IMG/VR virus record: IMGVR_UViG_3300033153_010139
Coordinates: 32,001-96,000 of that record
Source of the DNA: a virus
DNA: 64,000 nucleotides
Strand: one strand, 5' to 3'
Positions 2,583 through 50,865 of the stretch are shown in pieces. The notes under the pieces were generated by a model. It did not search any database. It had not been told where the DNA came from and saw only the letters and a list, made by a program, of their open reading frames with translations. Each line of letters starts with the position of its first letter. The first letter of the stretch is position 1. A program made the translations under genes and the position numbers.

Positions 2583-3509
2583 GTGGGCAGACCATCGGCA
2601 ATCGGCTACGGTTGGCAGCCTTACGGCCATCCGCAGAGCAGCAGCGCGCTGTGGCGCGCCGGTAATGCGCCGTTCCCGGTCAATGCCGGCTACGGCCGCG
2701 GCGACTGGGCCGAGTACGTCACCTGGCGAATCCTGCCGGAGCACACACGCAACGAGGATGGCGAAGGGAGCCTGGTCCCAGAGCCGCTGCGCGGCATGAT
2801 CGACTGCCTCAAGCCGCTCATGAACGAGTTGGTCGCCAAGTGGACGCTTTTCCCGACGCTCTGGGACGCGAACCTGTGCCCGATCGCGCAGCTCCCGAAG
2901 CTGGCCTACAACGTGGGGATCGCGCTCGACCCGACGAAGTCCGAAGCGCTGCAGCGCTCTGAGGTGCTGAACGCCTCCCAGCTGTTCCTGCACAAAGGCA
3001 CCGATCTCGGCTATACCATCGTCGCCGCGTTCGAGGGTCTGCTGGTCACGATCACGGCACTCTGGGCGGACGGGCAAGAGCCATCGTCAGCGCTGACCGA
3101 CGTCGATCCGACGACGTTCGTTGCGCAGTACGACGAAGTGGCGGCAGACGACATCCCGACCGACGAGGTCTTCGACGACCGCTACGCGCTGTGGCCGAAG
3201 AGTCTCTACGTGACCGGCCCGGTACGGACCATGAAGCTGCGGCTCGTGTTCTACCCGACGGCGGATCAGACACAGGACTTTGACCCGGACGTCGCGGACC
3301 GAATCGTCGCCAGGCTCCTGCGGTTCAAGCCCATCTATGTGGAGATCGATCGGATCACCTTCGATGGGCTGCGCGGGTCTAGCCAGACGTGGGTAGAAGA
3401 CATCAACGCCGGCGAATTGGCGGTAGGCATGTGGACTGCGCCAGTTACGGGCGCCAGCTATGCGGCCAGCGCGACGTGGACGGCTCCGGTCGTGGCGAGC
3501 ACGGTGTAG
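2583..3509 (+). CDS. Baseplate/tail formation protein (P2 gpI-like)
   Basis: LWDANLCPIAQLPKLAYNVG...HKGT resembles Tail_P2_I; follows the gpJ-like gene. Confidence 0.65.
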   Translation: MGRPSAIGYGWQPYGHPQSSSALWRAGNAPFPVNAGYGRGDWAEYVTWRILPEHTRNEDGEGSLVPEPLRGMIDCLKPLMNELVAKWTLFPTLWDANLCPIAQLPKLAYNVGIALDPTKSEALQRSEVLNASQLFLHKGTDLGYTIVAAFEGLLVTITALWADGQEPSSALTDVDPTTFVAQYDEVAADDIPTDEVFDDRYALWPKSLYVTGPVRTMKLRLVFYPTADQTQDFDPDVADRIVARLLRFKPIYVEIDRITFDGLRGSSQTWVEDINAGELAVGMWTAPVTGASYAASATWTAPVVASTV

Positions 3510-3518
3510 GAGAGATCA

Positions 3519-4934
3519 ATGGCGAAGCTACTGGCGTTCCAGCGAAACGTGGGCAAGGTTGTGACGATCGACACGATCAACAACACGCTCACGGTGCTCG
3601 GGTTGGTGCATCCCACCAATGTCGAGAACACGGACAGGTTCGGGCTCCGCACGCGCAACAACATTGCCGTGTTCAAGGGCGCCCCGTTCTTGCTCTACCG
3701 GGAGTCCGTGGCGATGGAGACGCGCGTAGCGCTCTACGCGACCGGGTTCTGGGTTGACCAGGCAAGCGCAACGCTGTCCGACCCGGCCACCGGCTACCGC
3801 TCGCCGACTGCGCTGCACGTTGAGCAGGACAAGCTCGTGTCCATCACGCAGATCAACCAGGACGGCACGGTGGACGCCATCGAGGCGATGACATCCACCG
3901 ACGGGATCGCTTGGACGGCCGCCGTGTCGCGCGCGATGCCGACGATGCCTGCCGACAGTCGCGGCGGGCACTCCATCAACTGGCGGAACGCCATTTGGGT
4001 CGCGACGCCCGACGGCCTGCTCTACTTCGACGTGGCCGGCAACGCGTGGACGACGACCTTCGATCCGGGCGACGACTCGGGCATCGCCGGGCAGGAAGTC
4101 CTGATGGGCTCCTTCGCCTTCTGGAACAACGACCTCTACTTCGCGCTGCCCGGCGCTTCCGTGCGGATCTACAAGCTGGCGTCCGACTGGGACCTGGCCG
4201 CGCCGGCACCGGCGCCTGCGTGGACGAACATCAGCGCGACGGGCATCGTGAGTGTGGGAACGTTCACGCCGGGCGCCGACTCCAGCGGCGTGTGCCTGTT
4301 CGTTGGGCCAGCTGACGACAGCCTCTACCTGCTCTACTCGGCGCAGCTCGGCACCATGATGGCGAAAACGACGGCCGCGGACTACCCGGCCTTCACGGAC
4401 GTTACGGATCCTTACGTGCCCGCCGCGCTCAGGTCAGAGACGCACTTTGACATCTCGCACTACGTGGACGACAGGCGCAGCGTCGCCGAGCTGCATTCGT
4501 TCCTGTTCCGGTCCCCGATGAGCGGCGACACCCGGCTTCTCTCGTGGGATGGCGTGTCTGAGCTTGACGTGCGTACGACGCTGTCCGGCATCTCGGTCAT
4601 GCCGCCGCACGAGCGGTTCGGCGCGCTGCGCACCTACACCGCGTGGCAGCCAGGCTGCTACATCCTATCGACGTCGGCCCCGTTCCCCGGGCGCGTCCAG
4701 ATTGAGTACGAGGTTCGCGACATCTCGTCGCGTCCGGTGGACATCTTCGGCGAGTACTCGATCGACGGCGACGAGTGGCTGCCCATGTCCCAAGGCGACG
4801 GAGACGACGGCAACGAGCAAATCTCCACCACGCCTCCCGGTCAGCACACGTTCTATTGGGATGCGTGGACGGATCTGACCGGCACCCACGACAATATGCG
4901 TATGCGCATCGTCGCCAGGATCTCTGGGGTCTAA
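3519..4934 (+). CDS. Virion protein, probable beta-propeller plus Ig-like C-terminal domain
   Basis: 471 aa, GGAG RBS, beta-rich, S.DG..W (BNR-like) motifs. Confidence 0.5.
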   Translation: MAKLLAFQRNVGKVVTIDTINNTLTVLGLVHPTNVENTDRFGLRTRNNIAVFKGAPFLLYRESVAMETRVALYATGFWVDQASATLSDPATGYRSPTALHVEQDKLVSITQINQDGTVDAIEAMTSTDGIAWTAAVSRAMPTMPADSRGGHSINWRNAIWVATPDGLLYFDVAGNAWTTTFDPGDDSGIAGQEVLMGSFAFWNNDLYFALPGASVRIYKLASDWDLAAPAPAPAWTNISATGIVSVGTFTPGADSSGVCLFVGPADDSLYLLYSAQLGTMMAKTTAADYPAFTDVTDPYVPAALRSETHFDISHYVDDRRSVAELHSFLFRSPMSGDTRLLSWDGVSELDVRTTLSGISVMPPHERFGALRTYTAWQPGCYILSTSAPFPGRVQIEYEVRDISSRPVDIFGEYSIDGDEWLPMSQGDGDDGNEQISTTPPGQHTFYWDAWTDLTGTHDNMRMRIVARISGV

Positions 4935-46858: not shown

Positions 46859-47542
46859 ATGAGCAAGCCACGCGTTCTCGTCATTGGCGGTAAGCGTAAG
46901 AACATTCCGGCTTGGGCCGATGCCGCCTTCGAGATCGTGCTGTTAGAGCAGGAGGGGCCGAAGGCGCGTATCGAGCCGCCCGAGGCGCCGTGTTCCGCGA
47001 TCGTGATCTACACGGGGGCCGTCTCGCACCAGCACTCCGGGCAGGCGCACGAGATGGGCTCCACGTGGGACGTGCCGGTGCTCAAGGCGCGCGACGGTTG
47101 GAGTACCGCTGTCCAGCAGGCCGCGCAAATCGGCGCTACGTGGTTCGTGGACGCCGTGCAGACCGGCGCCGCGGCCATCAGCGACAAGAACCCGCCGCGC
47201 GCTGAAGAGGCCGCCAAGATCGTGGACAACGCTTGGCGCGATCACGCCGAGCAGGAGGCCGCCAGGAGCGACGGCCTGGAGAAGCGGCTACGCAAAGTTC
47301 AGGTCAAGCTCGACAAGGCCAACGAGGTGATCGCCCGCCTGCGGTCTGGCGCAGAGGAGCGGATCCTCTCCGAGATCAGGCGGCGTGCGGCAGAGGTGCG
47401 CCAGGAGCGGGAAGGGCTGAAGACCGAGAAGCGCATCGTGCACGGCATCACGCAGGATTTGGCCAGCTGGCTCGGCAAGGCCGCCGACCTGCACGCTCAT
47501 CTGAAAGAGGTCGAGGCGCGCTTGCAGGACGAGGTAGACTGA
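46859..47542 (+). CDS. DUF2325-like N-terminal domain plus coiled coil
   Basis: VLVIGG...IVIYTGAVSH pattern; heptad C-terminus. Confidence 0.55.
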   Translation: MSKPRVLVIGGKRKNIPAWADAAFEIVLLEQEGPKARIEPPEAPCSAIVIYTGAVSHQHSGQAHEMGSTWDVPVLKARDGWSTAVQQAAQIGATWFVDAVQTGAAAISDKNPPRAEEAAKIVDNAWRDHAEQEAARSDGLEKRLRKVQVKLDKANEVIARLRSGAEERILSEIRRRAAEVRQEREGLKTEKRIVHGITQDLASWLGKAADLHAHLKEVEARLQDEVD

Positions 47543-47549
47543 CCCGACC

Positions 47550-49913
47550 ATGGGCGAGCCTTACCTGAACGTTGTTGGCGTCGGAGACGCTCTGGAGTAC
47601 CTGCGTCGCGTTCCCGACAGTTCCATCGACTCGTGCGTGGCGGACGCTCCGTACGGATTGGGCACGCCGCCGATACCGCAGGAGGTCATGTTCTTCTGGA
47701 TGCGGGGCAAGGACTATAACGCCAAAGGCACCGGCTTCATGGAGGCGTCGTGGGACGCGTTCGTTCCGGGACCGCCGATCTGGAAAGAGGTCTACCGCGT
47801 TCTGAAGCCCGGCGCCTGGTGCCTGGTGTTCTTCGGCACGCGCACCTACGACTGGGGCGCGATGGCGATGCGGTTCGCCGGGTTCGAGGTGCAGGACTGC
47901 GCCTCTTGGATCTTCGGATCGGGCTTCCCCAAATCGCTGAACGTCTCGAAGGCCATCGACGCGCACCTGGTCTCCGGCTACAGCGACTCCCATGCGCTGA
48001 AGCACGCGAACGACAACGTTCGCACCGGCGAGGGCCGGGAGCGCGCGAGCACGCACAACCGCGGAATCTCAAGCCACGACGAGCGCGGCGGCAGGACCAT
48101 TCGCGACGAGCCCGCGACTGAGGACGGCAAGCGCTGGCAGGGCTGGGGCACGGCAATGAAACCGGCCCAGGAGCTTGTCGCGATGGCGCGCAAGCCGTTC
48201 GACGGTACCTACGCCGAGCACGTGCTGGAGCACGGCACGGGCGCGTTGAACATCGACGCGAGTCGCATTGCCGCCAGCGATCCGGTGAACTTCCAGTTCG
48301 GACCTTCCGAGAGCTTGGGGCATGGCTCGTTCAAGATGGCCGACTCGACGGACGCCAAACGCGCGAACACGCTGTGGGAGAACACGCAGGGGAGGTGGCC
48401 AACGAACGTCCTCTTCCAGCACCTGCCCGAGTGCCAGCTGGTCGGCACGAAACGCGTGGCGACTGGAACGGCGGTGAAGCGGAATCTGCCACCCGAGGGC
48501 GCGAGCCGGCGGGTCGGCAACAAGGCACGCACGCAACGCGGCGATGACATTACCTACGCCGACGCGGACGGCAAAGAGGCCATCGAGGAATGGGACTGCG
48601 CGCCGGGTTGCCCGGTCGGCGAGCTAGATCGGCAGAGCGGCGTCAGCAGCTCAACCGGCGGTACCGGCGAGGCCAGCAAACGAACCGCGGGCAGCGGTAG
48701 CGTCTTCCAGCGCCCGAGTAACACGGGCGGATTTGGCGATACCGGCGGCGCCAGCAGGTTCTTTCTGACGCTGCCAGCGACGGTTGACCAATCGGGTTCT
48801 TCTATGCACGATGAAGCACAGGAGACGCTATGCAACGATCGTGCGAGCAGTGCGCCGGAACGTTCGACGCCAGGCCGTCGGCAGTTGCACGAGGTTACGG
48901 GCGGTTCTGTACCAGGCAATGCGCCGGACTCGCGCGACGCGGTCGAGGGCGAGTTGACGCCTGGAGATATTTCAGCAAGCGCGATGGGCGCTGGTACCGA
49001 AAATGGCGGGAACCCGGCTCGCGGAAGCTCCGCTCCCAGCTCGAAAACCGCTGGATCTGGGAGCAAGCGCACGGCGCTATCCCCGAGGGGCACGAAGTCC
49101 ATCACCGGAACGGGCGCCAAACCGACAACACCCCCTCCAACCTCCAGCTCGTCACAGAAGCATGGCACGACAACTATCACCAGCGACGACGAGAGGCGCA
49201 CCGTAACAAGAACGGGCACGAGGAGAGACGCTGCCAGTGCTGCAAGCGATGGAAGCGCCTCAACCACTTCAGCATTCGCCGGGCCGGAACCTACCATGGC
49301 TACTGCAAGCCCTGCGCCCGCCGGAAGCTCCAAGAGTGGCGTGCCGCGAACCGAGAACACCACAACGCCTACATGCGAGCCTACCGTCGAAGACAAGCTC
49401 GCCTCTAGCCCCCGCTTCTTCTACCACGCGAAGGCGGCGAACAAGGAGCGCTGGTCCTACTGCCGCACCTGCAAGATCGCGTTCCAGCACAGTCGCGAGC
49501 GCTTCAAGGAGCACGAAGCGCACAAGGACGAGGTCATCTCGCACCCAACTCAAAAGCCGCTCAAGCTCATGGAGTACCTGGTCCGGCTGGTCACGCAACC
49601 CGGCGGCGTCGTGCTTGATCCTTTCTGTGGTACCGGATCGACGCCGGTGGCAGCCAGACGGCTCGGGCTCAACTTCGTGACCTGTGACCTGGACGAGGAC
49701 TACACGCACATCGCGCGCGCCAGGCTGGGGCAGATCGGTCGAGAGGCCGAGTCAGCGCTTACCTCCGGCGCCTACTTCTGCCCCGGCTGCAAGGCAAAGG
49801 GCGAGATCAAGCTGATCGCCCGGGAGGCCGTAGAGCGCATGCGCAAGCGCGGCAAGAAGACGACCTGCGTGAAGTGCATGGAGCGATACACCTACGAGGA
49901 GCTGGTCACGTGA
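47550..49913 (+). CDS. DNA methyltransferase (N6/N4, beta class) with ~210-aa insertion
   Basis: DAPYG (motif IV variant), RVLKPG, GSGFPKS, GWGTAMKPA, GRWPTN, HPTQKP and DPFCGTGST. Confidence 0.9.
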   Translation: MGEPYLNVVGVGDALEYLRRVPDSSIDSCVADAPYGLGTPPIPQEVMFFWMRGKDYNAKGTGFMEASWDAFVPGPPIWKEVYRVLKPGAWCLVFFGTRTYDWGAMAMRFAGFEVQDCASWIFGSGFPKSLNVSKAIDAHLVSGYSDSHALKHANDNVRTGEGRERASTHNRGISSHDERGGRTIRDEPATEDGKRWQGWGTAMKPAQELVAMARKPFDGTYAEHVLEHGTGALNIDASRIAASDPVNFQFGPSESLGHGSFKMADSTDAKRANTLWENTQGRWPTNVLFQHLPECQLVGTKRVATGTAVKRNLPPEGASRRVGNKARTQRGDDITYADADGKEAIEEWDCAPGCPVGELDRQSGVSSSTGGTGEASKRTAGSGSVFQRPSNTGGFGDTGGASRFFLTLPATVDQSGSSMHDEAQETLCNDRASSAPERSTPGRRQLHEVTGGSVPGNAPDSRDAVEGELTPGDISASAMGAGTENGGNPARGSSAPSSKTAGSGSKRTALSPRGTKSITGTGAKPTTPPPTSSSSQKHGTTTITSDDERRTVTRTGTRRDAASAASDGSASTTSAFAGPEPTMATASPAPAGSSKSGVPRTENTTTPTCEPTVEDKLASSPRFFYHAKAANKERWSYCRTCKIAFQHSRERFKEHEAHKDEVISHPTQKPLKLMEYLVRLVTQPGGVVLDPFCGTGSTPVAARRLGLNFVTCDLDEDYTHIARARLGQIGREAESALTSGAYFCPGCKAKGEIKLIAREAVERMRKRGKKTTCVKCMERYTYEELVT
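48830..49408 (+). CDS. HNH endonuclease nested out of frame inside the methyltransferase gene
   Basis: Own AGGAG RBS; CEQC..RFCTRQC zinc finger; HGAIPEGHEVHHRNG..TDN..SNLQLV...H HNH; C-terminal CQCC/YCKPC. Confidence 0.85.
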   Translation: MQRSCEQCAGTFDARPSAVARGYGRFCTRQCAGLARRGRGRVDAWRYFSKRDGRWYRKWREPGSRKLRSQLENRWIWEQAHGAIPEGHEVHHRNGRQTDNTPSNLQLVTEAWHDNYHQRRREAHRNKNGHEERRCQCCKRWKRLNHFSIRRAGTYHGYCKPCARRKLQEWRAANREHHNAYMRAYRRRQARL

Positions 49914-50101
49914 GGCTGCGGTGTGAGGGTTGCGGTACGGAGAACTCCTACAGCGGGTGGCACGAGCATGGGACGCTGCCGGGCGCCGTACTCTGCACAT
50001 GCTGCCACTACGCGAGCTGGCCGGAACCGTGCCCGTGCGGCGACTGCGGACCGGCGAACGCCATCGACGCTCTTGGCGATCTTGTGAGGACCGGCGCGTG
50101 A
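49910..50101 (+). CDS. Small Cys-rich protein, tag NAIDALGDLV
   Basis: GTGA coupling on both sides. Confidence 0.6.
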   Translation: MRLRCEGCGTENSYSGWHEHGTLPGAVLCTCCHYASWPEPCPCGDCGPANAIDALGDLVRTGA

Positions 50102-50865
50102 GGAAGCGGACAGAGGCTCAACGGACCGAGGCGCTTGAGACGGGGATTTACCACGGCAATGCTCTGCAGCTCCTCAAGCACCTGCCGCCGAACAGCATCG
50201 ATCTGTTGCTTACGGACCCCCCGTACAACACGTCCAAGGCGAACAACTTCCACACGATGGGCCGCACCGGCATCAACTTCTCGTGGGACGGCGGCTTCGA
50301 CCAGGTCACGTGGCTGCGGCTCGCCGACCCGGCGCTCAGGCCCGGCGCCAACGTGGTGATCTGGAACGACTGGAAAAACCTCGGGCTGATCGCCGCCGCG
50401 CTGGAGCAGCTGGGCTACGACATCAAGCGCGACATTTCCTGGTGGAAGAGTAATCCGATGCCGCGCAACATCAGGCGGTCGATGGTCCAGCGAAACGAGC
50501 ACGGCTTTTGGGCCGTGAAGCGAGGAGCTAAGTGGACCTTCAACCCGGAGCCCGGTCGGCCATACGAAGACGGCGTGTATCGCTACCCGATCCCGCGCGG
50601 ATCTTCCGGCGCGGGCCGCGAACGGCACGAGACGAAAAAACCGGACGACATGTTCCGGGCGATCATCCGACTCTTGAGCAACCCGCTCGACCGGGTGCTT
50701 GATCCGTTCGTCGGCGGTGGCACAGCCGCGTACGCGGCAGAGGCCGAAGGGCGCAGACACATCAGCTTTGAGCTTTCGGCGAAGTGGTACGCCGAGGCGC
50801 GCATACACCTGCTGGGGGCTCCGTCGGTTTCGGCGGTAGACCAGCTCGCTCAGATCGCACTGTAG
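50098..50865 (+). CDS. DNA methyltransferase (beta class), C-terminal tag SAVDQLAQIAL
   Basis: TDPPY, H.TKKP and LDPFVGGGT. Confidence 0.9.
   Translation: MRKRTEAQRTEALETGIYHGNALQLLKHLPPNSIDLLLTDPPYNTSKANNFHTMGRTGINFSWDGGFDQVTWLRLADPALRPGANVVIWNDWKNLGLIAAALEQLGYDIKRDISWWKSNPMPRNIRRSMVQRNEHGFWAVKRGAKWTFNPEPGRPYEDGVYRYPIPRGSSGAGRERHETKKPDDMFRAIIRLLSNPLDRVLDPFVGGGTAAYAAEAEGRRHISFELSAKWYAEARIHLLGAPSVSAVDQLAQIAL

What the first reader, a model, noticed from the sequence alone, without database searches (positions are those of the whole stretch)
48765..49425. HNH endonuclease overprinted inside a DNA methyltransferase gene, both frames open
Seen: the MTase frame runs uninterrupted from 47550 to 49913. 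The usual GGASRFFY.AKA motif is split into GGASRFF and RFFYHAKA by about 210 aa of low-complexity Ser/Thr/Gly sequence. That stretch is the alternative-frame read-through of a complete 192-aa zinc-finger HNH gene (48830-49408) with its own AGGAG RBS. Known: beta-class MTases need both the N-terminal motif IV and the C-terminal FxGxG motif. Inference: a homing endonuclease that is tolerated as a disordered loop, with no intron or intein I can recognise.
Basis: partly seen in the sequence, partly recalled or inferred. Interest (0 to 1): 0.76.

Follow-up and report, generated by a model that had tools for sequence, protein, structure and literature searches.

The report
Hidden HNH gene inside phage methyltransferase
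A selfish DNA-cutting (HNH) gene sits in a shifted reading frame inside a phage DNA-methyltransferase gene whose own frame stays free of stop codons across it, a splicing-free arrangement first published in 2025 for related phage methylases and seen here at a different position in the gene.

Summary
The methyltransferase (MTase) frame is open over 47550-49913 (787 aa). A complete 192-aa HNH_3 gene (48830-49408, AGGAG 5 nt before its ATG) lies in the third frame, inside an insert that insertion-free homologues lack (645 nt, or 657 nt with a repeated RFF).

The open host frame is not chance. In this genome 1 of 910 windows of 215 codons is open in that frame. Across two HNH-seeded surveys, 50 distinct MTase-embedded relatives have 0 stops in 8,857 codons, against 651 in 19,500 for the other 95 relatives. 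This includes loci of 32-40% GC.

Substitutions fit selection on the HNH protein: 69% identity in the HNH frame against 46% in the MTase frame. AlphaFold models the insert as disordered between well-folded MTase halves. No intron or intein signature was found.

The kind is already in print as the "ShiLan domain" hidden HNH (Arsenault, Gosselin and Gogarten 2025, PMC11855218). This scan has noted it before on other DNA, in 50 notes. The HNH here is a relative (39% over 117 aa) at another site, after GGASRFF, and that subfamily recurs in metagenomes.

Verdict: a real, selected, new member of a known kind. Read-through, HNH activity and MTase activity remain untested.

The parts
47550..49913 (+). 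Whole DNA methyltransferase reading frame, 787 aa, with no stop
   Evidence: ORF list. (PF01555 at 95.4 bits, in two stretches). (best fold matches are beta-class N6-adenine and N4-cytosine MTases: M.BceJIV, M.MboIIA, CcrM).
47550..48764 (+). MTase N-terminal part (motif IV region and target-recognition region), ending in GGASRFF
   Evidence: Alignments A1 and A3. AF2 pLDDT is 83-98 over residues 11-120.
47643..47654 (+). Motif IV, read as D-A-P-Y rather than the usual DPPY
   Evidence: The relatives L009, P0004, P0005 and P0006 read D[AS]PY. D32, P34 and Y35 are nearly invariant in A3.
48756..48764 (+). First copy of the RFF repeat (AGGTTCTTT), at the end of the 5' host part
   Evidence: The repeat R[FY]F ... 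R[FA][FKQ]Y was printed at both junctions by the motif script in 8 of the 11 site-B loci examined, and not in L102, L103 and L106. It is also present in P0002 and P0003, read by eye.
48765..49409 (+). Inserted cassette, 645 nt or 215 codons (657 nt to 49421 if the second RFF is counted). In the MTase frame it reads as an S/T/G/A/P-rich peptide.
   Evidence: AF2 pLDDT is 25-34 with no secondary structure over residues 411-627.
48797..48814 (+). Leader relic TTCTTCTATGCACGATGA. In the HNH frame it reads F-F-Y-A-R-stop, a shifted copy of the target motif RFFY.A.
   Evidence: TTCTTCTAYGCA is also present in L010. It is implied by the peptide DSSTH in P0002. Its meaning is unexplained.
48820..48824 (+). 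Shine-Dalgarno-like AGGAG, 5 nt upstream of the HNH start codon
48830..49408 (+). [quoted passage not shown] It has two CxxC...CxxxC zinc-finger pairs, an HNH core and a TAG stop at 49406-08.
   Evidence: (HNH_3, E 7.8e-14). (C5, C8, C31, H91, H92, N100, N104, H113, H117, C135 and C138 are invariant among 5 relatives). (nearest phage relatives all lie inside methylase genes).
49413..49421 (+). Second copy of the RFF repeat (CGCTTCTTC), where the 3' host part RFFYHAKA begins
49410..49913 (+). MTase C-terminal part: PRFFYHAKA, a Cys-rich hairpin, HPTQKP, motif I and a C-terminal Cys-rich tail
   Evidence: AF2 pLDDT is 85-95 over residues 631-730.
49617..49643 (+). Motif I (AdoMet binding), DPFCGTGST
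   Evidence: P691, G694, G696 and T698 are invariant in A3.

Best explanation
This is a splicing-free homing-endonuclease cassette of the 'hidden HNH' (ShiLan-domain) kind. A compact HNH gene with its own ribosome-binding site and ATG has been copied into a conserved motif (GGAS-RFF-Y.AKA) of a phage beta-class DNA methyltransferase gene. The insert's length is a multiple of three, and the HNH gene is written in the -1 (third) frame. Ribosomes that start at the MTase ATG therefore read straight through it and make a 787-aa MTase. In that protein, about 215 S/T/G/A/P-rich, disordered residues loop out between the N-terminal catalytic/recognition part and the C-terminal AdoMet-binding part. Ribosomes that start internally at 48830 make the HNH enzyme. 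That enzyme is inferred to cut or nick insert-free MTase alleles in co-infecting phages, so that repair copies the cassette in. What is shown: the anatomy; purifying selection on the HNH protein; strong selection against stops in the host frame across many diverged relatives; and the absence of intron and intein signatures. What is inferred: that the long protein is made and is active; that the loop is merely tolerated; that initiation at the internal site occurs; and that the HNH is an active homing enzyme.
For: (1) Anatomy.

(2) Selection for an open host frame. In the viral-contig survey seeded with HNH proteins only (80 loci), 24 HNH copies are flanked on both sides by MTase homology, and 24 of 24 have no stop in the +1 frame over the HNH ORF. 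For 22 of 24 the MTase flanks are in one frame, stop-free from flank to flank, with the HNH at shift 2. Of the other 60 HNH copies, 2 are open, and the rate is 3.45 stops per 100 codons. In the genome and metagenome survey (83 loci), 38 of 38 copies flanked on both sides are open, and 36 of 38 have both flanks in one frame and the HNH at shift 2. Of 43 copies without flanks, 2 are open. After removing identical ORFs, 50 embedded ORFs remain (39 clusters at 90% identity, 32 at 70%). They have 0 stops in 8,857 codons, against 651 in 19,500 for the 95 others. Synonymous resampling with host-gene codon usage gives P(open) from 0.59 down to 0 of 5,000 in 13 embedded copies. The low-GC copies give the smallest values: L101 0.0014, L016b 0.0004, and L016a, L032, L125 and L163 each 0 of 5,000.

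(3) Which frame carries the protein-level constraint. Between the window and L010, nucleotide differences by HNH codon position are 55/44/92. Amino-acid identity is 69% in the HNH frame, 46% in the MTase frame and 39% in the third frame.

(4) Codon signature in the window. All 8 Leu codons are CTC (genome share 0.35). No V, L or I codon ends in A or G. T at codon position 2 is 0.11, against 0.25 genome-wide.

(5) AF2 with a 40-row alignment gives core pLDDT of 85-98 and insert (411-627) pLDDT of 25-34, with no secondary structure in the insert.

(6) No intron family in Rfam at E<=10. No intein or Hint family at E<=0.1.

(7) Mobility. On a 40-row MTase tree the 4 site-B carriers need at least 2 changes across starred branches. 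In the site-A relative Murica, compared with insert-free Porky, the flanks are about 99% identical around a divergent centre that holds the cassette.

(8) The same reading was published for the related ShiLan domain (PMC11855218; sections 3, 12, 19 and 32 read).
Against: There is no expression, protein or activity data for this or any relative. No sequencing run was listed for the stretch, and the paper itself reports only computation. For the window alone the statistics are modest once the HNH amino-acid sequence is taken as given: P(open) is 0.13, with a further factor of 1/3 for length. Motif IV reads DAPY rather than DPPY, so MTase activity is not assured, although the whole subfamily shares D[AS]PY. 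Four flanked copies do not show one continuous MTase frame: the second HNH copies of L014 and L015, plus L100 and L116. I did not resolve whether these are assembly errors, other insertions or broken genes. The tree evidence for mobility of the site-B element is thin: there are 4 carriers, and 2 of them were found with the read-through peptide as query, so they were biased toward open frames. A long disordered loop could also be clipped by proteases, leaving two associated halves, and the data cannot tell that apart from an intact loop.
Confidence: 0.8

Rival explanations
1. The insert is an intron, either group I or an unrecognised self-splicing or host-spliced RNA, that carries the HNH ORF. 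The open MTase frame would then be incidental.
For: HNH genes commonly ride in phage group I introns (established knowledge; also PMC11855218 section 3.5). The insert begins with a short copy of the sequence that follows it (RFF). The 2025 paper raised this as a possible group I trait for the ShiLan domain. No RNA data exist.
Against: An Rfam scan at E<=10 over 48300-49900 finds no intron family. Only 65 nt before and 1 nt after the HNH ORF are free for a ribozyme core. A spliced insert would not need to be stop-free or a multiple of three, yet 62 of 62 embedded copies are stop-free over the HNH ORF and 58 of 62 keep one host frame. These include copies of 32-40% GC, where resampling gives P<=0.0014. 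The paper's RNAweasel/MFannot runs were also negative for the ShiLan domain.
Confidence: 0.04
2. The insert is an atypical intein, or is otherwise removed after translation. The read-through peptide would be excised and the MTase halves ligated.
For: The insert is in frame, stop-free and in a conserved motif, as inteins are. The same MTase family does carry intein-like insertions: L009 has a LAGLIDADG_3-bearing insertion in motif I, and an intein is reported in ShiLan gp65 (PMC9957025 passages).
Against: There is no Hint, intein-splicing or LAGLIDADG hit in the 787-aa protein at E<=0.1. The first residue of the insert is L, K, F, F or K, its last is S, G, P, G or K, and the next residue is P, K, T, S or R in the window, L009, P0002, P0003 and L011. 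So there is no conserved Cys/Ser/Thr or terminal Asn. The insert is modelled without any fold. Its sequence evolves as a by-product of the HNH frame (46% against 69% identity).
Confidence: 0.02
3. The MTase is a dead or dispensable gene, and the open frame is kept for another reason, or the protein works only after the loop is cut into two associating halves. One such reason would be that uninterrupted translation protects the transcript and lets the HNH be expressed.
For: Motif IV is DAPY. A second PF01555 MTase lies directly downstream at 49930-50865. The 2025 paper notes that close relatives of ShiLan lack this methylase. Long disordered loops are protease-sensitive (general knowledge).
Against: The flanking MTase parts keep their invariant residues (25 invariant columns in A3, all present in the window) and fold confidently. 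The subfamily without inserts also has D[AS]PY. Selection against stops extends to the very end of the insert and restores the frame exactly, which is what MTase function requires.
Confidence: 0.1
4. The open frame is coincidence: in 65% GC DNA, long alternative-frame ORFs are common, and this one merely happens to be open.
For: A 280-aa antisense ORF (48554-49396) is also open over the same stretch. P(open) given the HNH protein sequence is 0.13.
Against: Only 1 of 910 windows of 215 codons is open in this particular frame in the same genome. The length is a multiple of 3 and restores the conserved C-terminal half exactly. Relatives at 32-40% GC show the same arrangement.
Confidence: 0.01

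Closest known systems
ShiLan domain: the hidden out-of-frame HNH endonuclease in the actinophage DNA methylase ShiLan gp65 and 9 other phages (Gosselin et al. 2023, PMC9957025, passages read; Arsenault, Gosselin and Gogarten 2025, PMC11855218, sections 3, 12, 19 and 32 read)
   Same: Both hosts belong to the same MTase family (PF01555; 35-38% identity to the Porky, PopTart and Filuzino methylases). The HNH is homologous, with the same N-terminal zinc finger (39% over 117 aa, E 1e-10 to 2e-10; alignment A2). The HNH is in the third frame. The insert is a multiple of 3 and stop-free in the host frame. The HNH stop lies within the last 4 nt of the insert. The start of the insert repeats the host sequence that follows it. 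No intron or intein signature is found, and the read-through peptide is modelled as disordered.
   Different: The insertion site differs: here it is after GGASRFF, about 190 residues further along than the ShiLan site after TALKP. The repeat is 3 residues rather than 11. The start is ATG with a canonical AGGAG 5 nt upstream, whereas the paper reports GTG and no detectable RBS. The HNH has a longer C-terminal part (192 aa, against 169 aa in my ORF calls and 195 aa in the paper). The host is an uncultured 119-kb, 65% GC phage, not a mycobacteriophage. The subfamily is found in metagenomic DNA of 32-65% GC.
Pacc40 gp60 insertion (same 2025 paper, section 3.6)
   Same: An out-of-frame putative HNH sits inside an unbroken methylase frame, at a site other than the ShiLan site.
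   Different: The paper says that methylase is divergent (helicase plus methylase, another pham) and that its HNH is similar to free-standing genes of cluster AY phages. I did not fetch Pacc40, so no direct comparison was made.
Inteins with homing-endonuclease domains
   Same: Both are selfish insertions in conserved motifs of a host protein, translated in frame with it. The related MTase in L009 carries an intein-like insertion as well.
   Different: Here the endonuclease is in another frame, there is no splicing domain, and the junction residues are not conserved.
Group I introns that carry HNH ORFs (for example I-HmuI of SPO1; recalled, not fetched)
   Same: An HNH homing gene interrupts a conserved phage gene.
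   Different: No ribozyme was detected, and there is no room for one (66 nt outside the ORF). The host frame is selected to stay open.
Free-standing HNH genes that split host genes (for example mobE in nrdA of phage Aeh1; recalled, not fetched)
   Same: A homing-endonuclease gene without an intron or intein lies inside a host coding region.
   Different: Those insertions cut the host gene into two separately translated genes. Here there is no stop and no restart, so a single polypeptide is expected.

Membership tests
Hidden out-of-frame HNH insertion element (ShiLan-domain kind) | The insertion lies in a conserved site of a phage DNA methylase gene and is absent from close homologues | tested here: met
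   A1 and A3. Insert-free P0004-P0007 are 48-60% identical overall in A3, and P0006 and P0007 read GASRFF[WY]S.KA without a break.
Hidden out-of-frame HNH insertion element (ShiLan-domain kind) | The insert length is a multiple of three and there is no stop in the host frame | tested here: met
   645 nt (or 657 nt) with 0 stops. The same holds in the relatives.
Hidden out-of-frame HNH insertion element (ShiLan-domain kind) | [quoted passage not shown] | tested here: met
   The shift is 2. TAG is at 49406-08, and the insert ends at 49409.
Hidden out-of-frame HNH insertion element (ShiLan-domain kind) | The HNH is homologous to the ShiLan-domain HNH | tested here: met
   tblastn gives 39% over residues 1-117, with E 1e-10 (Bipolar) and 2e-10 (ShiLan). 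All 15 Mycobacterium-phage records lie under methylase features. See also alignment A2.
Hidden out-of-frame HNH insertion element (ShiLan-domain kind) | The insertion site is the same as that of the ShiLan domain (after TALKP) | tested here: not met
   The window's site is after GGASRFF (residue 405). The ShiLan-type site maps to about residue 205-217 of the window protein.
Hidden out-of-frame HNH insertion element (ShiLan-domain kind) | The distribution among host genes is disjunct, as expected of homing | tested here: inconclusive
   At least 2 changes are forced on a 40-row tree, but there are only 4 carriers and 2 of them were found by a biased query.
HNH_3 endonuclease (PF13392) | The score exceeds Pfam's gathering threshold | tested here: met
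   51.5 bits against 24.8, E 7.8e-14, residues 74-111
HNH_3 endonuclease (PF13392) | The catalytic His-Asn-His residues and the zinc-binding cysteines are present | tested here: met
   H91, H92, N100, N104, H113, H117, C5, C8, C31, C135 and C138 are invariant in A2. Nuclease activity is not testable here.
Beta-class N6-adenine/N4-cytosine DNA methyltransferase (PF01555) | Pfam score over the threshold, with motif IV before motif I | tested here: met
   95.4 bits against 26.7. D-A-P-Y is at residues 32-35 and DPFCGTGST at 690-698. Fold matches are M.BceJIV, M.MboIIA, CcrM and M.RsrI.
Beta-class N6-adenine/N4-cytosine DNA methyltransferase (PF01555) | Canonical (D/N/S)PP(Y/F/W) catalytic motif | tested here: inconclusive
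   The window reads DAPY, and the subfamily reads D[AS]PY. The motif definition is recalled. Activity is untested.
Group I intron | A conserved ribozyme core detectable by covariance models | tested here: not met
   Rfam 15 at E<=10 over 48300-49900 gave 5 hits, none an intron and all far below their gathering scores. Only 66 nt lie outside the ORF.
Intein | Hint/splicing blocks, a Cys/Ser/Thr at the first and the +1 positions, and a terminal Asn | tested here: not met
   No intein family at E<=0.1. The junction residues are L...S|P here and vary among relatives.

The most novel reading that the evidence does not exclude
The HNH cassette may be a portable module that is already adapted to being read through. 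One HNH lineage would have evolved a stop-free +1 frame (few T at codon position 2, avoidance of NTR codons, C-rich third positions). It could then colonise new sites in methylases (after TALKP, after GGASRFF, before HPTxKP) and even other genes, always in the same phase, with no splicing machinery. Candidates outside methylases are a terminase intein in L062 and a nucleotidyltransferase ORF in L078 and L174. That would make 'translate-through' a third general lifestyle for homing endonucleases, beside introns and inteins. The conserved leader relic (FFYA-stop in the HNH frame) would be a trace of how the module captures a new target.
Probability: 0.4. Interest if true: 0.6.

Novelty: new member of a known kind. 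Interest (0 to 1): 0.35.

Why it matters
Homing endonucleases are thought to survive inside essential or useful genes only by hiding in self-splicing introns or inteins. The hidden-HNH arrangement is a third way: the host simply translates through the parasite in another frame. It was proposed in 2025 from ten mycobacteriophages and one further case, with no experiment.

This window adds a second subfamily at a new site in the same methylase family. The comparisons made here supply the quantitative argument that the published sections I read do not give. The host frame is stop-free in 50 of 50 distinct embedded copies (0 stops in 8,857 codons), against 3.3 stops per 100 codons in non-embedded relatives. 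This holds down to 32% GC, and the HNH is in the same phase in 58 of 62 copies.

That makes splicing very unlikely and gives clear material for a bench test. In practice, such genes are annotated as single long 'methyltransferases' and the nuclease is missed.

Tried and rejected
Intron: the Rfam E<=10 scan of 48300-49900 gave only 5 noise hits, so this was rejected.

Intein: no Pfam hit and no conserved junction residues, so this was rejected.

-1 frameshift fusion of the MTase N-part to the HNH: the HNH frame has a TGA at 48812-14, 15 nt before the ATG, and I saw no slippery site in 48815-48829. Not supported.

Separate translation of two MTase halves: there is no stop in the MTase frame, and I saw no start codon in the first 50 nt or so after the HNH stop. 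Rejected as a gene structure. Proteolysis of the loop cannot be excluded.

Promoter and terminator scan of 47300-50100: 0 promoter-like sites, and 1 terminator-like site at 47811 against 2.1 expected. Nothing useful.

Sequencing runs for 47550-49913: none was listed and no RNA holder was listed, so there is no evidence either way.

Near or distant DNA matches to known phages: the best match covers 12% of the query at 71% identity, within methylase genes only. The phage itself is not in that collection.

Fold search of the 787-aa model: the matches are beta-class MTases, but most align only 62-74 columns of the C-terminal part because the model is broken by low-confidence loops. I could therefore not map the insertion point onto a solved structure.

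I did not resolve the four flanked copies without one continuous MTase frame (the second copies in L014 and L015, plus L100 and L116). I did not fetch Pacc40. Supplements and the GitHub repository of the two papers were not seen and may list further sites, including this one.

Literature: 'homing endonuclease' + 'overprinting' gave 0 papers. 'ShiLan domain' gave 2 papers. The five-term search gave 102 papers, of which I read the listing of 25.


Full report
THE OBSERVATION. The window is bases 32001-96000 of a single 119,266-bp virus record of about 65% GC. On the + strand an ORF runs from ATG 47550 to the stop ending at 49913 (787 aa). A second complete ORF of 192 aa runs from ATG 48830 to TAG 49406-08 in another frame. 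Pfam gives N6_N4_Mtase (95.4 bits, two separate stretches) for the long ORF and HNH_3 (E 7.8e-14) for the short one. AGGAG lies 5 nt before the HNH ATG. The HNH frame is the MTase frame +2.

WHERE THE INSERT IS. Porky gp98, a Proteus-phage methylase and an uncultured-phage homologue read GGASRFF-PVF[KR]Y-xAKA without a break. Against them the window has 645 extra nucleotides, 48765-49409, or 215 codons. The closest insertion-free homologues are P0004-P0007 (48-60% identical overall). P0006 and P0007 read GASRFF[WY]S.KA. Against these, the extra stretch is 657 nt and RFF occurs twice (48756-64 and 49413-21, 6 of 9 nt alike). Only 65 nt precede the HNH ATG inside the insert, and 1 nt follows its stop.

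IS THE OPEN FRAME CHANCE? In 82 other genes of the same genome, the frame that the MTase occupies relative to the HNH (+1) has 2.65 stops per 100 codons. Only 1 of 910 windows of 215 codons is open. Given the HNH amino-acid sequence and genome codon usage, the frame would be open in 13% of synonymous resamplings. This is because the protein has only 17 L/V/I/M residues. All 8 Leu codons are CTC (genome share 0.35), and no L, V or I codon ends in A or G. T at codon position 2 is 0.11, against 0.25 genome-wide. So the window alone is suggestive, and the comparative data decide.

RELATIVES. tblastn of the HNH against 50,697 phage records found 66 records. The 15 Mycobacterium-phage records are the ten best-covered phages: Bipolar, ShiLan, Pollywog, MISSy, Murica, Starcevich, OwlsT2W, Filuzino, Mantra and Totinger. 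All of them lie under features annotated as DNA methylase. In Filuzino, Murica and Mantra the HNH ORF is out of frame inside an unbroken methylase ORF, at another site, after TALKP. Murica and insert-free Porky are about 99% identical in the outer parts of the gene and divergent in the centre that holds the 606-nt insert. That is the pattern expected after homing with co-conversion.

SURVEYS. A scan of viral contigs with the window HNH found one 69%-identical copy (L009/L010) at the same site as in the window, inside a 1102-aa open methylase ORF. That ORF also carries an intein-like LAGLIDADG_3 insertion in motif I. Scans with an HNH alignment returned 80 viral loci, 3 genome loci and 80 metagenome loci. 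These scans were seeded with the HNH only, so they are blind to the state of the host frame. Among the viral loci, 24 HNH copies have MTase homology on both sides. All 24 are stop-free in the +1 frame over the HNH ORF. In 22 of 24 the two flanks are in one frame, stop-free from flank to flank, with the HNH at shift 2. The exceptions are the second copies in L014 and L015. Of the 60 other copies, 2 are open (L062, L078), and the rate is 3.45 stops per 100 codons. Among the genome and metagenome loci, 38 of 38 copies flanked on both sides are open, and 36 of 38 keep one frame at shift 2 (exceptions L100 and L116). Of 43 copies with no flank, 2 are open: L098, a 1-kb contig, and L174.

SURVEY STATISTICS. 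After removing identical ORFs, there are 50 embedded ORFs (39 clusters at 90% identity, 32 at 70%, 7 at 50%). They have 0 stops in 8,857 codons, against 651 in 19,500 codons for the 95 others. Embedded copies occur at 32-40% GC (L016, L032, L033, L057, L099-L101, L125, L163). Resampling there gives P(open) between 0.0014 and 0 of 5,000. L105 is a 50%-identical relative without MTase flanks, and it has 5 stops in that frame.

SITE-B SUBFAMILY. Copies at the window's site, after SR[FY]F and before R[FA][FKQ]Y.AKA, are L010, L011, L097, L099/L100/L101, L102, L104 and L108 (41-69% identical HNH). L103 and L106/L107 are probably further copies. P0002 and P0003 were found with the read-through peptide and so were biased toward open frames.

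WHICH FRAME IS THE GENE? Between the window and L010 the HNH genes differ at 55, 44 and 92 of 193 first, second and third codon positions. Protein identity is 69% in the HNH frame, 46% in the MTase frame and 39% in the remaining frame. The HNH protein is thus under ordinary purifying selection. The read-through peptide drifts freely, except that it never acquires a stop. It is 63% S/T/G/A/P, which follows from the C-rich third positions of the HNH codons (0.46 C). AlphaFold2 with a 40-row alignment folds the MTase halves with confidence (pLDDT 83-98 for residues 11-120 and 85-95 for 631-730). It gives residues 411-627 a pLDDT of 25-34 and no secondary structure. The best structural matches are beta-class MTases.

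NOT AN INTRON, NOT AN INTEIN. An Rfam E<=10 scan found no intron family. There is no room for a ribozyme outside the ORF. Pfam shows no Hint or intein family, and the junction residues vary among relatives. Above all, a spliced RNA would not need an open, in-phase host frame.

MECHANISM. Shown: the anatomy, the selection on both frames, and the lack of splicing signatures. Inferred: ribosomes starting at 47550 read through and make a 787-aa MTase with a disordered loop between its catalytic/recognition part and its AdoMet-binding part. Also inferred: ribosomes starting at 48830 behind AGGAG make the HNH, which targets insert-free alleles so that repair copies the cassette in. On a 40-row MTase tree, the window and L009 are sisters (SH-aLRT 95) inside a clade with the insert-free P0004-P0007. 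P0002 and P0003 lie in the other main clade, so at least 2 gains or losses are forced. This is a thin sample.

WHAT IS KNOWN. The arrangement is in print. Gosselin et al. 2023 (PMC9957025, passages read) described the 'ShiLan domain' as an enigmatic 202-aa insertion with a disjunct distribution in an actinophage methylase family. That family also holds an intein and a lone LAGLIDADG insertion. Arsenault, Gosselin and Gogarten 2025 (PMC11855218; sections 3, 12, 19 and 32 read) showed that it encodes an out-of-frame HNH in the third frame with no stop in the host frame. They found no intron or intein signature and proposed that the insert stays in the protein as a loop. They also added a second case in Pacc40 gp60. 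All of this is computational. This scan has 50 earlier notes of the same kind on other DNA.

WHAT DIFFERS HERE. The window's element is a homologue of the ShiLan HNH, in a homologue of that methylase. It sits at a different site, has a 3-residue rather than 11-residue repeat, and has ATG plus a canonical RBS where the paper reports GTG and no RBS. It lies in an uncultured large phage. I did not see this site in the parts of the papers that I read. Their supplements and repository were not seen.

VERDICT. It is a new member of a recently described kind, at a new site and in a new subfamily. Interest is moderate, mainly because the mechanism is still untested and this locus, with its clear RBS and ATG, is a good test case.

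Noticed in passing
window 48797-48814: The 65-nt leader of the cassette holds TTCTTCTATGCACGATGA. In the HNH frame this reads FFYAR-stop, a frame-shifted copy of the host target motif RFFY.A that follows the insert. The 12-mer TTCTTCTAYGCA is also in L010 and is implied in P0002. Its origin and role are unexplained.
   Followed up: partly
L062:1536-3962 (host ORF) and 3128-3703 (HNH): A terminase large-subunit ORF (Terminase_6N) has an Intein_splicing match at residues 479-741. An HNH_3 ORF lies within that stretch in another frame, and the host frame is stop-free across it. This looks like an intein whose endonuclease is encoded out of frame.
   Followed up: partly
L078:2158-7116 and L174: Relatives of the HNH lie out of frame inside very long open ORFs (1652 and 1171 codons). 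The L078 ORF also holds a PolyA_pol head domain and a LAGLIDADG intein. The hidden-HNH arrangement may therefore extend beyond methylases.
   Followed up: partly
L016:1636-4032: A methylase ORF of about 39% GC and 798 aa carries two out-of-frame HNH genes (2265-2735 after ALKP, 3405-3833 just before HSTVKP) and still has no stop. Resampling gives P(open) of 0 of 5,000 and 0.0004.
   Followed up: partly
L009:1787-5095: The nearest relative's methylase (1102 aa) has, besides the hidden HNH, an in-frame insertion of about 390 aa inside motif I (DPFCG|C...GN|TGST) with a LAGLIDADG_3 domain. It is intein-like.
   Followed up: partly
L007:677-3049 (Mycobacterium phage Mantra): The methylase also has an in-frame LAGLIDADG-type insertion near its N-terminus with no obvious splicing blocks. 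This is already described as the 'second endonuclease' in PMC9957025.
   Followed up: no
window 47643-47654: Motif IV of the methylase reads DAPY, and the closest relatives read D[AS]PY, instead of the usual DPPY. Activity and base specificity are open questions.
   Followed up: no
window 49930-50865 and 49874-50101: A second PF01555 methylase lies directly downstream and ends in SAVDQLAQIAL. The small overlapping ORF contains NAIDALGDLV near its end. These match the shared C-terminal tag that other notes of this scan report on many proteins of this phage.
   Followed up: no
G000:C1:183-830 (outside the window): A 365-aa open frame near the start of the genome has two HNH_3 matches (E 2e-11 and 9e-11). 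It is a separate double-HNH protein.
   Followed up: no
L014 and L015 (second HNH), L100, L116: Four MTase-flanked HNH copies have flanks that are not in one continuous frame, although the +1 frame over the HNH ORF itself is open. They could be assembly errors, further insertions or decaying genes.
   Followed up: no
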